DNA of 56,120 nucleotides, from positions 3,930 through 60,049 of the forward strand of contig JBHLLP010000019.1 in NCBI GenBank assembly GCA_048885525.1, written 5' to 3'. The first letter of the stretch is position 1. Every line of letters begins with the position of its first letter. Source of the stretch: Candidatus Hermodarchaeota archaeon (GTDB lineage Archaea > Asgardarchaeota > Lokiarchaeia > Sigyniarchaeales > SOKP01). The notes beneath the pieces were generated by a model. The model saw only the letters and a list, made by a program, of their open reading frames with translations. It had not been told where the DNA came from and did no database searches. The translations under genes and the position numbers were made by a program. Below, piece by piece: positions 27,972 to 33,215 of this stretch.

Positions 27972-29561
27972 TTATGTTTGATTTATAGTTTCTCCGTAGC
28001 CAATTAGCCGATAACGTCTATTTATTATTCTCGAAATAGCGTAGATAAAGTTTTCTGGAGGACATATTGGAGGATTTAGTTTGAGGATAACACTATTCTT
28101 CAATATTTTTATAACAGTTCCTCCTGTTTTTTCAGTACCTACAACTAATAATAATTTTTCATTATGTTTAAGTGAATATACTCTGAGCATTTGCTCAGAA
28201 CCAATCACTCTATCTAAAAGATTTATTTTTAGTTCTATTTCATCAAGAACATCGGGTAAAGTTCCAGGTTTTCCAACCAAATGGCCGATTAGGTGATCAC
28301 CCTTAGTTAAAGCAGGATCTAGTTTAGTTCCCAAACCTATGAGACCTCCAGGTTTTGCATTATCCAATAGATTATTTCCCTGACTAATACTTACAACAGT
28401 GGATTTTAGAGGAGTGTAATTATCTTTTATTCTTAAGCCAGGACGAATTTCAATTTGGTCACCAACATTAATTTTTCCTTTTAAAACAGATCCACCTATT
28501 ACACCTCCTTTAAGATCTTTGATTTCTTTTCCAGGACGATTAATATCAAAAGATCTTGCAATTAAAAATTGGAAATCTCCTTCACTAAATTCAGGAGATG
28601 GAATTATTTCTTCAAATGCTCTTAAAATTAGATCAATATTTGCTCCAAATACCGCTGAAACCGGTATAATTGGAGCTTTTTCTGCAATAGTCCCTTTAAT
28701 AAATTTTTTTATTTGTTGATGATTTTCCATAGCTTGCTCTCTTGAAACCGCATCAATTTTATTTTGTATTATGATAATATTTTCTATACCAGCAATATGC
28801 AATGCTTCTAAATGTTCTCTTGTTTGTGGTTGAGGACATATCTCATCTGCTGCGATTAATAAACATGCACCATCCATCAAAGATGCACCACTTAACATTG
28901 TAGCCATTAAGATTTCATGACCAGGAGCATCAACAAATGAAATATTTCTTCTAAATTCCAACAGTTCTTTACATTGTGGACATAAAAAGTGGGTTTCCCC
29001 TTTTTTTCTTGCTTTTTCAGCTAGGTAATATGTTAGATACTTATCACAATTTGGACAATACAGAATGGTGGCATTTGAATAACCTAGCTTTATTGAAATT
29101 CCTCTTTCTTGCTCTTCTGAGTGCCGATCTGTCCAATCTCCTGTTAGGGCTTTTACTAGGGTTGTCTGTATGTTTAATGAAGAATCCCTTCATAAAATTC
29201 CATGATCTACATGCCCTACAAGCCCTATATTGCATTCTGCTTGTTTCTTTATCAATTCTTTTAGTATATTAGCTTTCTCTTTTGATATTGGTTTTGCTTT
29301 AGGTTTTGATATCTGTTTTTCCTCTATTATTTCTTTCAGTTCATCAGAGGGTTGTTCTGTTATTTCATTTTCTTTTAACATTTTTATAGCATTTGTAATG
29401 TATTTTTCTGCGGTTGCTTTTCCGACACCCTTAATTTTTAGCTTCAATAAATCTTTTGGGCTAGCATTAGCAAGTTTTTCAACGGAATCAATATTAGCTG
29501 CCTTTAATCTTTCTGCTGTTGCTTTTCCAATTCCACTTACATCTTCCAATTTATATGACAT
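27972..29561 (-). CDS. eif2g: translation initiation factor aIF2 gamma with N-terminal HhH domain; two exons join(29561..29198, 29167..27972), 519 aa if spliced
   Basis: Exon 1 ends QAECNIGLVGHVDHG+A. Exon 2 reads AG ACA ACC CTA... giving KTTLVKALTGDWTDRHSEEQERGISIKLGY, a Zn knuckle, SFVDAPGHEILMATMLSGA, QNKID, RSFDINRPG, RLIGYG. The ORF track splits it into 29190-29561 and 27972-28961. Confidence 0.9.
29168..29197 (-). other. putative 30-nt BHB-type intron in aIF2-gamma mRNA
   Basis: TTTTATGAAGGGATTCTTCATTAAACATAC interrupts the AAG (Lys) codon of GHVDHGKTT, contains an in-frame TGA and an internal hairpin ATGAAG/CTTCAT; both junctions fall after nt 2 of 3-nt bulges. Confidence 0.8.
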
Positions 29562-32198: not shown

Positions 32199-32750
32199 TT
32201 AATCTTCTCTAGATTTATCTCTTTTTAGCTCTAAAAGGTATGAAATTGAATTAACAGTGCCTAAAATCCCTTGGATAATTAGAGCTAAAGCTATCAAAAA
32301 TACAGCTAAATAATCATTAAATACAAATAAAAAAATTATAATGAAAGTGCCTGCTAAAGTAAAATTCAATATAGAAGCGAATTCACTGACAATTATTTTC
32401 CATTTTTTGGATTTTTTTAATCTAACTTTAATTTCTTTTTGATACTGCTCTTCACCAGATTCCTTAACATACCAACTCCCCTCAATATTATTAGCAAATA
32501 GAAAAAGACTCCACCAAAATATGAAAAAACCAAAATAAAAATCCAAAGATCCTAACACTACAATTGGAATCTGCATTAAAATCATGCCTTTCCAACCAAT
32601 ACGTTTTGCGATTCTGTTAGTTTCAAGTTTTAATTCTTTTGTAACATATCTTGTACTCAGCATATCAAGAGTTCTAGCTATTATTGTAATAAATGCATTC
32701 AACAGAAATTGATACCAATGAGAATCCTGATGGATTAATTGAAAGAACAT
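32199..32750 (-). CDS. hypothetical membrane protein
   Basis: 4-5 hydrophobic segments, DMLST...ETN motif. Confidence 0.6.
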   Translation of the reverse strand: MFFQLIHQDSHWYQFLLNAFITIIARTLDMLSTRYVTKELKLETNRIAKRIGWKGMILMQIPIVVLGSLDFYFGFFIFWWSLFLFANNIEGSWYVKESGEEQYQKEIKVRLKKSKKWKIIVSEFASILNFTLAGTFIIIFLFVFNDYLAVFLIALALIIQGILGTVNSISYLLELKRDKSRED

Positions 32751-32809: not shown

Positions 32810-32874
32810 AATTATTATCTTTTATTATTCCTATTTACTTATAACCATATATAAGTAAGTATTTTCTTATAAAA

Positions 32875-32897
32875 TAACCGACCTTATATAACGGTTA
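32875..32897 (+). promoter_or_regulatory. TATA box (TTATATAA 32884-32891) of the 5S precursor, bracketed by inverted repeat TAACCG/CGGTTA
   Basis: About 20-25 nt upstream of the precursor stem that starts at 32909. Confidence 0.5.
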
Positions 32898-32908
32898 AAA
32901 ACAACGAT

Positions 32909-33122
32909 TATAACCACATAAATTAGTAGCAGTTCGCTACGGCGCCGGAACCATCCGAACCCGGAAGTTAAACTTGTATTATGTTGTAGATAGTACTGTA
33001 GTTGCGAATTACAGACCATAACGGTCTGAAAGTAGAGTCTATGGGAAACTACAAACTGTAAGTTAGCTTACGGTCATGGTATACAAGGAAAATACCCGGT
33101 CACGCTTTTTTATGTGGTTATA
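32909..33122 (+). repeat. 14-bp perfect inverted repeat (processing stem) enclosing the permuted 5S gene
   Basis: TATAACCACATAAA (32909-32922) / TTTATGTGGTTATA (33109-33122); leader hairpin GTAGC-AGTTC-GCTAC at 32926-32940. Confidence 0.85.
32951..33101 (+). rRNA. rrf: 5S rRNA, circularly permuted gene (3' segment 32951-33064 precedes 5' segment ~33065-33101)
   Basis: Conserved CCATCCGAACCCGGAAGTTAA, loop-E AGTA/GGGAAA, helix I ACTGTAAG/CTTACGGT, helix II ATACAAG/CTTGTAT, helix III CCGG/CCGG, stems TTGTAG/CTACAA and CTGTAG/CTATGG. Confidence 0.92.
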
Positions 33123-33215
33123 CATGCTTATCTTTTTATAATTTTACCTAAAATTAAGTTTTTAAACTATTAATTATATCTTTATTTAATATTTAATGAT
33201 TCTTAATCTAAAACC

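What the first reader, a model, noticed from the sequence alone, without database searches (positions are those of the whole stretch)
32909..33122. Circularly permuted 5S rRNA gene with a BHB-type processing stem: predicted circular 5S rRNA
Seen: the 3' part of a 5S rRNA (CCATCCGAACCCGGAAGTTAA...GGGAAACTACAAACTGTAAG, 32951-33062) comes before its 5' part (CTTACGGTCATGGTATACAAGGAAAATACCCGGTC, 33067-33101). The normal 5'/3' ends of helix I are fused by a TTAG loop. The unit sits in a 14-bp perfect inverted repeat. Its ends form outer helix GGCG(32941-44)/CGCT(33103-06), a 4-bp central helix CCGG(32945-48)/CCGG(33096-99), and 3-nt bulges AA^C and TC^A; the inner helix is weak, so this is a relaxed BHB/BHL. 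Established: archaeal splicing endonuclease EndA cuts after nt 2 of each bulge and RtcB ligates; permuted SRP RNA in Thermoproteus and permuted tRNAs in Thermofilum are matured this way. Applying that rule joins 33101 to 32951 and gives ACCCGGUC^CCAUCCGAACCCGG, the canonical helix III/loop C. CCGG 33096-99 must switch partner from the leader copy (precursor) to 32961-64 (mature). Inference: the mature 5S is made by EndA/RtcB circularisation and may stay covalently closed. I know of no described archaeal permuted 5S gene, but cannot check the literature here.
Basis: partly seen in the sequence, partly recalled or inferred. Interest (0 to 1): 0.96.

Follow-up and report, generated by a model that had tools for sequence, protein, structure and literature searches.

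The report
Permuted 5S rRNA gene in Asgard archaea
The only 5S ribosomal RNA gene of this Asgard archaeon is encoded back to front, and must be cut and rejoined, probably into a closed ring, by the tRNA-splicing enzymes; the same layout occurs in over half of the Asgard genomes sampled and explains why their 5S genes have been reported as undetectable.

Summary
Window 32951-33101 holds a complete 5S rRNA in circularly permuted order. Loop C to the helix I 3' strand comes first, a UUAG loop caps helix I, and the helix I 5' strand to the helix III 5' strand follows. [quoted passage not shown]

It is the only 5S-like locus in a 99%-complete genome. A profile of canonical sister-family 5S matches full length only after re-ordering and removal of a 30-nt insert (33008-33037). 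That insert is itself a BHB mini-intron.

Relatives break the gene at three different points. Each break obeys the rule "cut after bulge nucleotide 2", and the joined sequence across each junction is the same. In genes broken elsewhere, the window's predicted junction is encoded contiguously.

A covariance model of the permutation hallmark hits 86 of 151 genomes across the phylum, in 18 of 27 families. These are almost exactly the complement of the 49 genomes with a canonical 5S.

The genome has two EndA paralogues (alpha/beta type) and one RtcB. I found no publication describing this.

The parts
32884..32891 (+). TATA-like box (TTATATAA) of the probable 5S promoter
   Evidence: Read from the sequence. 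The block AAAATAACCGACCTTATATAA is conserved upstream of the gene across the genus. Its function is inferred.
32909..32922 (+). 5' arm of the 14-bp outer processing stem
   Evidence: Perfect complement of 33109-33122. Present in the minimum free energy fold. 94% paired in 16 relatives with 2 compensatory pairs.
32926..32940 (+). Small leader hairpin (GUAGC-AGUUC-GCUAC) between the outer stem and the BHB
   Evidence: 100% paired in 16 relatives, with a G-C to A-U compensatory change. Its role is unknown.
32941..32944 (+). BHB outer helix, 5' strand (GGCG)
   Evidence: Pairs with 33103-33106. The core GCG/CGC is 100% paired in relatives.
32945..32948 (+). BHB central 4-bp helix, 5' strand: leader copy of CCGG (CUGG in most relatives)
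   Evidence: Pairs with 33096-33099. 100% paired in 16 relatives. Ensemble probability 0.30.
32949..32951 (+). 5' bulge AA|C; predicted EndA cut between 32950 and 32951
   Evidence: BHB rule of cutting after bulge nucleotide 2. The junction is confirmed by type B genes that encode it contiguously.
32951..33101 (+). Excised unit of 151 nt: the whole 5S rRNA in permuted order
   Evidence: Units in relatives are 120-121 nt, or 150-151 nt with the insert. Rotated units align end to end with canonical 5S.
32951..33062 (+). 5S 3' part: loop C, helix III 3' strand, helix II 3' strand, helices IV/V, helix I 3' strand
   Evidence: Rfam RF00001 scores 28.4 bits, matching model positions 35-120.
33008..33037 (+). 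30-nt BHB mini-intron in loop D. Central helix UUGC 33002-05 / GUAG 33032-35; bulges GA|A 33006-08 and AG|U 33036-38; outer helix 32996-33001 / 33039-44.
   Evidence: Equals the alignment gap in 11 of 16 relatives exactly (A1 columns 106-135). Three unrelated 30-nt inserts occupy the same site. Its helices are 92-100% paired with compensatory changes.
33063..33066 (+). UUAG tetraloop capping helix I, where a normal 5S has its two ends
   Evidence: The loop is variable in relatives and is often UUCG, UACG or GUAA. The helix I hairpin is 99.5% paired with 6 of 8 pairs covarying.
33067..33101 (+). 5S 5' part: helix I 5' strand, loop A, helix II 5' strand, loop B, helix III 5' strand
   Evidence: Helices I, II and III are completed only by pairing with the upstream part. 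The HMM matches positions 3-35 only after re-ordering.
33096..33099 (+). CCGG that pairs with the leader copy in the precursor (BHB central helix) and with 32961-64 in the mature RNA (helix III)
33100..33102 (+). 3' bulge UC|A; predicted EndA cut between 33101 and 33102
   Evidence: BHB rule. These three bases are unpaired in the minimum free energy fold.
33103..33106 (+). BHB outer helix, 3' strand (CGCU)
33109..33122 (+). 3' arm of the 14-bp outer processing stem
33133..33137 (+). T5 run, probable transcription terminator
   Evidence: Read from the sequence. T-runs stand at this place in relatives. Inferred.

Best explanation
This is the organism's single, functional 5S rRNA gene, encoded in circularly permuted order.

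Proposed pathway:
1. Transcription from its own promoter gives a precursor of about 220 nt.
2. A 14-bp stem plus a short helix bring leader and trailer together. A leader copy of CCGG pairs with the helix III 5' strand at the end of the unit. [quoted passage not shown]
3. The alpha/beta-type splicing endonuclease EndA cuts after the second bulge nucleotide on each strand, at 32950/51 and 33101/02.
4. RtcB joins C33101 to C32951, which recreates helix III and loop C.
5. A second BHB removes a 30-nt intron (33008-33037) from loop D.
6. The product is a 121-nt covalently closed circular 5S rRNA. Helix I is capped by a tetraloop, and this circle is what enters the ribosome.

Shown here by comparison: the permuted order, the fold, the BHB, the junction and the presence of the enzymes. 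Inferred: cleavage, ligation and persistence of the circle.
For: **Sole 5S locus.** It is the only 5S-like locus in a 99.3%-complete genome.

**Re-ordering restores the gene.** Only the re-ordered, intron-less sequence gives a full-length match to a canonical 5S profile: 35.8 bits against 13.3 bits native. The Rfam 3' part alone (28.4 bits) outscores the colinear reading (21.9 bits).

**The permuted fold is conserved.**
- 95.9% paired in 16 relatives.
- 96.5% paired with 250 doubly changed cells across ten or more families.

**Three break points, one rule.** Type A breaks at loop C, type B after helix III and type C at loop B. Each sits in a BHB with 3-nt bulges and a 4-bp central helix, and the joined sequence across each junction is the same. 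75 of 77 loci have a strict BHB whose junction is spanned by the canonical profile. Other families have outer helices of 10-14 bp.

**The junction is a genuine 5S sequence.** The 30-mer across it is found contiguous in colinear 5S genes of other archaea.

**Precursor folding.** The precursor folds with a z-score of -5.0, and the BHB conformer lies within 0.9 kcal/mol of the minimum.

**Enzymes.** There are two EndA paralogues at 33% identity. From the alignment, one lacks a His at the position of the catalytic one. There is one RtcB.

**Helix I cap.** The cap is often a UNCG or GNRA tetraloop, with no spacer between the old ends.

**Precedents.**
- The permuted SRP RNA of Thermoproteus is cut by EndA and stays circular (PMC4731332).
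- E. coli lives with a 5S whose native ends are closed (PMC7283268).
Against: - No RNA evidence of any kind.
- The window's BHB has no inner helix, and its outer helix is only 4 bp.
- In most type A relatives the central helix has a G-U pair.
- The minimum free energy fold prefers helix III over the BHB central helix.
- A second BHB register, shifted by one base on each strand, would give a circle 2 nt longer. It is disfavoured only because type B genes encode the shorter junction.
- Circular 16S, and in some archaea 23S, rRNAs are re-opened before use (PMC12918454), so persistence of the circle cannot be assumed.
Confidence: 0.7

Rival explanations
1. The gene and the EndA/RtcB circularisation are as above, but the circle is only an intermediate. 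It is re-opened in the helix I loop, or elsewhere, to give a linear 5S with conventional ends, as happens with permuted tRNA genes and circular pre-16S rRNA.
For: Permuted tRNAs mature through a circular intermediate that is then opened (PMC3978253). Circular pre-16S and pre-23S rRNAs are re-linearised in several archaea (PMC10515664, PMC12918454).
Against: - The old ends are joined by only 4 nt, with no spacer or conserved cleavage motif.
- The loop varies freely and is often a stable UUCG, UACG or GUAA cap.
- Helix I is extended rather than loosened in some families.
- I know of no enzyme that opens such a loop in 5S.
Confidence: 0.15
2. EndA, or another nuclease, trims leader and trailer, but the ends are not ligated. 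The ribosome carries a linear, permuted 5S with a nick at helix III/loop C, as in brown-algal mitochondria.
For: Brown-algal mitochondrial 5S is permuted in the final product and is linear (PMC4267664).
Against: - The nick would fall in the most conserved protein-binding part of 5S.
- The break point differs between close relatives while the sequence across it is invariant.
- A BHB is conserved at every break, and RtcB is present.
Confidence: 0.08
3. The locus is not a working permuted gene. It is an assembly artefact, a pseudogene, or a divergent colinear 5S (32922-33064) with an unrelated downstream hairpin.
For: Rfam aligns 32922-33064 colinearly over model positions 1-120.
Against: - That alignment scores 21.9 bits, below the 38-bit gathering score, with unpaired helix I and II positions, and scores less than its own 3' part.
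- The same order occurs in 118 of 131 genomes of the family, including single-contig genomes.
- The downstream 35 nt are as conserved as the rest and covary with the upstream part.
- No other 5S is found in the genome.
Confidence: 0.02

Closest known systems
Permuted SRP RNA gene of Thermoproteus tenax (Plagens et al. 2015, PMC4731332)
   Same: An essential non-coding RNA gene with the 3' part before the 5' part. The termini lie next to a functionally important loop. It is processed at a BHB by the tRNA splicing endonuclease, and the ends are ligated into a stable, functional circle.
   Different: - The RNA here is a ribosomal RNA, not SRP RNA.
- The Thermoproteus case is described for some Thermoproteus species; this one is found in 18 of 27 sampled families of a phylum.
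- The break point has moved at least twice.
- The gene also carries BHB mini-introns.
- The Thermoproteus case has RNA-seq, northern and in vitro cleavage evidence; this one has none yet.
Circularly permuted tRNA genes (Cyanidioschyzon merolae; reviewed in PMC3978253)
   Same: Permuted gene order, a BHB at the junction of leader and trailer, and circularisation that restores the functional sequence.
   Different: In tRNAs the circle is an intermediate. A spacer between the old 3' and 5' ends is removed to give a linear product. Here the old ends are joined by a 4-nt cap with no spacer.
Circular or permuted 23S rRNA of archaea (PMC7758197; PMC12918454; bioRxiv 10.64898/2026.03.23.713588)
   Same: A ribosomal RNA excised at a BHB in a processing stem, ligated by the tRNA-splicing machinery, and incorporated into ribosomes in circular or re-opened form.
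   Different: The 23S gene itself is colinear, and circularisation joins its natural ends. Here the gene is permuted in the DNA, so ligation is needed to create an internal, conserved part of the molecule. PMC12918454 states that the excise-and-circularise pathway applies to archaeal 16S and 23S 'but not 5S rRNAs'.
Permuted mitochondrial 5S rRNA of brown algae (Valach et al. 2014, PMC4267664; Rfam mtPerm-5S)
   Same: A natural 5S rRNA in which helix I is a closed hairpin and the ends lie elsewhere.
   Different: It is organellar. The ends are at the alpha/gamma junction. There is no BHB, and the final RNA is linear and stays permuted. No such Rfam hit was listed for the window.
Low-level circular 5S reads in Sulfolobus and Halobacterium (Danan et al. 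2012, PMC3326292)
   Same: A circular form of 5S rRNA seen in archaea.
   Different: Those genes are colinear. The circles are minor, were not validated by RT-PCR, and were proposed to be intermediates or degradation products.

Membership tests
5S rRNA (Rfam RF00001) | Colinear match to the covariance model at or above the 38-bit gathering score | tested here: not met
   No match at gathering level. 21.9 bits in E-value mode. This is the expected failure for a permuted gene.
5S rRNA (Rfam RF00001) | Full set of domains (helices I-V, loop C CCAUCC-GAAC, loop E AGUA/GAA) at about 120 nt once the order is restored | tested here: met
   The re-ordered, intron-less 121-nt sequence matches positions 3-115 of a canonical 5S HMM at 35.8 bits. 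It aligns end to end with canonical 5S. All five helices are 87-100% paired and covary.
5S rRNA (Rfam RF00001) | It is the genome's 5S: no other copy | tested here: met
   One locus only in a 99.3%-complete genome, with RF00001 at E<=10 and with R1 and R2.
BHB-processed circularly permuted non-coding RNA genes | 3' part encoded upstream of 5' part, with the natural ends fused | tested here: met
   The helix I hairpin is 99.5% paired with 6 of 8 pairs covarying.
BHB-processed circularly permuted non-coding RNA genes | A BHB (two 3-nt bulges, 4-bp central helix, flanking helices) formed by leader and trailer, whose cuts give exactly one unit | tested here: met
   In the window, the central 4 bp, both bulges and a 4-bp outer helix are present, and the inner helix is absent, so it is the relaxed type. 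75 of 77 related loci have a strict BHB at the restoring position. Other families have outer helices of 10-14 bp.
BHB-processed circularly permuted non-coding RNA genes | Splicing endonuclease able to cut relaxed motifs, and an RtcB ligase, encoded in the genome | tested here: met
   Two EndA paralogues of 198 and 205 aa, each with both Pfam domains, 33% identical. From the alignment, the second has no His ten residues after the conserved Tyr. One RtcB at 571 bits. That the alpha/beta type has broad specificity is from the literature, not tested here.
BHB-processed circularly permuted non-coding RNA genes | Junction-spanning RNA molecules and exonuclease resistance | not testable with these tools
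The metagenome scan gave only DNA of other archaea.
Archaeal BHB intron (for 33008-33037) | hBHBh' motif whose cuts remove exactly the sequence missing from intron-less homologues | tested here: met
   The predicted intron equals the alignment gap in 11 of 16 relatives. Three unrelated 30-nt inserts occupy the same site. Central and inner helices are 92-100% paired with compensatory changes. Splicing of the RNA was not observed.
Brown-algal mitochondrial permuted 5S (mtPerm-5S) | Ends at the alpha/gamma junction; linear final product; match to the Rfam model | tested here: not met
   The break is in the beta domain (helix III/loop C), not at loop A. No such family is listed in the E-value scan.

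The most novel reading that the evidence does not exclude
Most Asgard lineages build their ribosomes with a covalently closed circular 5S rRNA made from a permuted gene by the tRNA-splicing machinery. The permutation is ancient: the type B break is shared by many families. The break point has since migrated, and the gene has collected mini-introns. 5S maturation in the closest archaeal relatives of eukaryotes would then depend wholly on EndA and RtcB. The cultured, canonical-5S lineages would be the exception.
Probability: 0.6. Interest if true: 0.93.

Novelty: new variant of a known kind. Interest (0 to 1): 0.9.

Why it matters
[quoted passage not shown] Archaeal 5S is stated not to go through the excise-and-circularise pathway (PMC12918454). 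Here a whole section of the archaeal tree encodes it scrambled.

[quoted passage not shown] In my sample, genomes without a canonical 5S are almost exactly those that carry the permuted form. Many Asgard genomes assembled from metagenomes are probably scored as lacking a 5S for this reason. A permuted covariance model would fix their annotation and quality grading.

**Biology.**
- It would be, to my knowledge, the first cellular (non-organellar) rRNA gene that cannot work without RNA ligation.
- It predicts a circular rRNA in the ribosome.
- It makes EndA and RtcB essential for ribosome biogenesis.
- It fits a wider expansion of BHB splicing in these organisms, with introns in most tRNA genes (bioRxiv 10.64898/2026.10.13.758758) and, according to earlier notes of this scan, in mRNAs.
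- The migrating break points offer a natural experiment on how permuted genes evolve.

Tried and rejected
- **Rfam on the 5' part alone** (33065-33101) gave nothing, because the piece is too short.
I replaced it with split Rfam runs and a profile HMM of canonical sister-family 5S.
- **Metagenome scan for the junction 30-mer**. I hoped for RNA-derived contigs. All 7 hits are colinear 5S genes of other, GC-richer archaea. That validates the junction sequence but says nothing about expression.
- **Genome contigs pattern scan**. The pattern was too loose. Only one of the 80 listed loci, a Jordarchaeia genome, was a true permuted 5S by the covariance model. I could therefore not obtain organism names for the window's own family.
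- **RNAalifold on the mixed alignment** missed helix II because of alignment slippage. I specified the structure by hand instead.
- **An alternative BHB register** shifted by one base, giving a unit 2 nt longer (153 nt in the window), exists. I rejected it because type B genes encode GGUCCCAUCC.
- **Colinear divergent gene, pseudogene and assembly artefact** were rejected (see rival explanations).
- **Family f4 locus L022** has a canonical-looking gamma domain and helix I hairpin upstream of a colinear-looking copy. I could not draw a BHB there and did not pursue it.

Full report
**1. The observation.** The sequence at 32909-33122 is as described.
- A stretch with the hallmarks of the 3' two-thirds of a 5S rRNA runs from 32951 to 33062. 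It has loop C CCAUCC-GAAC, the loop E motifs AGUAC and GGGAA, and the helix I 3' strand ACUGUAAG.
- It is followed by UUAG (33063-66).
- Then comes the 5' third, 33067-33101: helix I 5' strand CUUACGGU, loop A, helix II 5' strand, and ACCCGGUC.
- A perfect 14-bp inverted repeat (32909-22 / 33109-22) encloses everything.

**2. Scores against 5S models.**
- Rfam finds nothing in the whole window at gathering level.
- In E-value mode it forces a colinear alignment of 32922-33064 at 21.9 bits, with mispaired helices I and II.
- The 3' part alone scores higher, 28.4 bits over model positions 35-120. The native upstream sequence therefore costs score.
- A profile HMM built only from canonical 5S genes of the sister family gives 13.3 bits for the native order (partial match), 24.9 bits re-ordered, and 35.8 bits when re-ordered with a 30-nt insert removed. 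The last match covers positions 3-115 of 118.

**3. It is the genome's only 5S.** The window's genome is 3.58 Mb in 87 contigs and 99.3% complete. It has no other RF00001 match at E<=10 and one match to each permuted model. The 5S is unlinked from other rRNA genes and sits between two ORFs without Pfam hits. Arf/Ras-family GTPase genes, typical of Asgard archaea, lie nearby. A near-identical contig is in NCBI assembly GCA_048938225.1.

**4. Relatives settle the junction.**
- All 24 sampled genomes of the genus have only sub-threshold 5S hits, while sister family f2 has canonical genes at 53-69 bits.
- Reading the loci shows the same permuted gene throughout. The excised units are 120-121 nt, or 150-151 nt with an insert.
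- There are two break points within the genus.
  - Type A (the window; about 24 genomes): leader GCG-C(C/U)GG-AA|C, trailer CCGG-UC|A-CGC.
  - Type B (about 9 genomes): leader GCG-CCGG-AA|G-UUAAAC, trailer ...GGUCCCAUCCGAACCCGG-AA|(G/A)-CGC.
- Type B genes therefore encode the exact junction predicted for the window, GGUC-CCAUCC, as contiguous DNA. Type A genes encode the type B junction contiguously.
- Family f3 has a third break in loop B: CCGA-AA|A / UCGG-AA|A.
- Every break has a 4-bp central helix, two 3-nt bulges and an outer helix. Cutting after bulge nucleotide 2 gives one complete 5S each time.
- A blind scan found a strict BHB, at the position where the canonical HMM spans the junction, in 75 of 77 loci. 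About 0.16% of position pairs form such a motif by chance.
- The 30-mer across the junction also occurs in colinear 5S genes of unrelated archaea.

**5. Structure.**
- On a native-order alignment of 16 type A loci (A1), the 5S fold written in permuted order is 95.9% paired against 34-44% for slid controls.
- The precursor structure is 97.1% paired against 33-42%. It comprises the outer stem, the leader hairpin, the BHB outer and central helices, and the intron BHB.
- Across 26 sequences from ten or more families, 96.5% of cells pair (63.5% when shuffled). 22 of 28 pairs have compensatory changes, and the helix I hairpin is 99.5% paired. That alignment was fitted to the model, which inflates it somewhat.
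- The window's precursor folds at -67.9 kcal/mol, with a z-score of -5.0. The minimum free energy structure forms helix III.
- The BHB conformer is 0.9 kcal/mol higher and holds about 30% of the ensemble.
- The window's BHB lacks an inner helix, so it is the relaxed type.

**6. A second BHB: an intron.** The 30 nt at 33008-33037 are absent from 11 of 16 type A relatives, exactly at the boundaries given by a well-formed hBHBh' motif:
- outer helix CUGUAG / CUAUGG;
- central helix UUGC / GUAG;
- bulges GA|A and AG|U;
- an inner hairpin.

Three unrelated 30-nt sequences occupy this site in different species. Other relatives carry 30-nt inserts in loop C and in the helix I 3' strand. The mature window RNA is therefore predicted to be 121 nt.

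**7. Enzymes.** The genome has two EndA paralogues of 198 and 205 aa, each with both Pfam domains, 33% identical. From the alignment, the second lacks a His ten residues after the conserved Tyr, as expected of a structural beta subunit. There is one RtcB. According to the literature, the alpha/beta architecture is the broad-specificity type. It was reported in 44 of 60 Asgard genomes (bioRxiv 10.64898/2026.10.13.758758).

**8. Distribution.**
- A covariance model of the permutation hallmark (R1) covers helix II 3' strand, gamma domain, helix I hairpin and helix II 5' strand. It hits 118 of 131 genomes of the family (12 genera) and the one f3 genome. It hits 0 of 14 in f2.
- Hand inspection then showed type B genes with outer helices of 10-14 bp in many more families. 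These include small (1.3-1.4 Mb) and single-contig genomes and a named Jordarchaeia genome.
- A broader model (R2) hits 86 of 151 genomes sampled across the phylum, in 18 of 27 families.
- RF00001 passes its threshold in 49 of the same 151 genomes. All but one of those lie in families where R2 finds nothing: f2, f9, f12, f14, f18 and f28. The exception is a single f27 genome (G246) that matches both models, possibly tandem copies on short contigs.

**9. Literature.** I found no description of a permuted archaeal 5S gene in ten searches, nine of which ran.
- PMC12918454 says 16S and 23S "but not 5S" are excised and circularised.
- PMC8813620 reports that 5S genes could not be predicted in closed Heimdallarchaeum genomes.
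- The closest precedent is the permuted, circular SRP RNA of Thermoproteus (PMC4731332).
- Brown-algal mitochondrial 5S is permuted but linear (PMC4267664).
- Sulfolobus shows unvalidated low-level 5S circles (PMC3326292).
- E. coli tolerates a 5S with closed native ends (PMC7283268).

**10. Verdict.** The permuted gene and its BHB-dependent repair are about as certain as comparison alone can make them. That the product stays a closed circle is the most economical reading, at about 0.7. Helix I carries a 4-nt cap that is often a UNCG or GNRA tetraloop. There is no spacer, and no known enzyme would open it. This still needs RNA evidence, which these tools could not supply.

Noticed in passing
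L056, L060, L042, L054, L061, L072, L076 (type B loci of relatives); L095: Inserts of roughly 30 nt interrupt loop C / helix III of the 5S gene (between CCGAA and CCCGGAA) in several species. In L095 (G079) another insert of about 30 nt sits in the helix I 3' strand. The 5S gene therefore has at least three mini-intron sites in this family.
   Followed up: partly
L022 (G031, family f4, same order): A canonical-looking gamma domain plus a helix I hairpin lies directly upstream of a colinear-looking 5S whose own gamma domain is degenerate. This could be a duplication intermediate on the way to, or from, a permuted gene. I could not draw a BHB.
   Followed up: partly
G246 (family f27), contigs C77, C90, C106, C132: This genome matches both the permuted model (four hits at the ends of short contigs) and RF00001 (38.4 bits) at overlapping places. 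This may mean tandem 5S copies with very short spacers rather than a permuted gene.
   Followed up: no
L224 (G263, family f9): A colinear 5S gene of 152 nt has an insert of about 30 nt after GUUAAA, so mini-introns may also occur in canonical 5S genes of the phylum.
   Followed up: no
window 32926-32940: A conserved 5-bp hairpin (GUAGC-AGUUC-GCUAC) sits in the leader between the outer stem and the BHB, with a compensatory change in relatives. Family f7 has a larger hairpin at the same place. Its role is unknown; it might be a protein-binding or folding aid.
   Followed up: partly
window 32835-32858: An inverted repeat, TTACTTATA / TATAAGTAA, lies upstream of the 5S promoter. It is conserved across the genus, in the divergent intergenic region shared with the minus-strand ORF 32199-32750.
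   Followed up: no
window 33106-33111: A T6 run lies inside the trailer, between the BHB and the 3' arm of the outer stem. It could terminate some transcripts before the stem is complete. In most relatives the run is interrupted (TTGTTT).
   Followed up: no
G000 contig 9, 105848-106096 (L032:1426-2040, minus strand): From the pairwise alignment, the second EndA paralogue has no His at the position of the catalytic one in the first paralogue, as expected for a structural beta subunit.
   Followed up: partly
window 29168-29197: Earlier notes of this scan report a 30-nt BHB-type insert in the aIF2-gamma gene about 4 kb upstream, and many such inserts in mRNAs of this genome. I did not re-examine them.
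   Followed up: no
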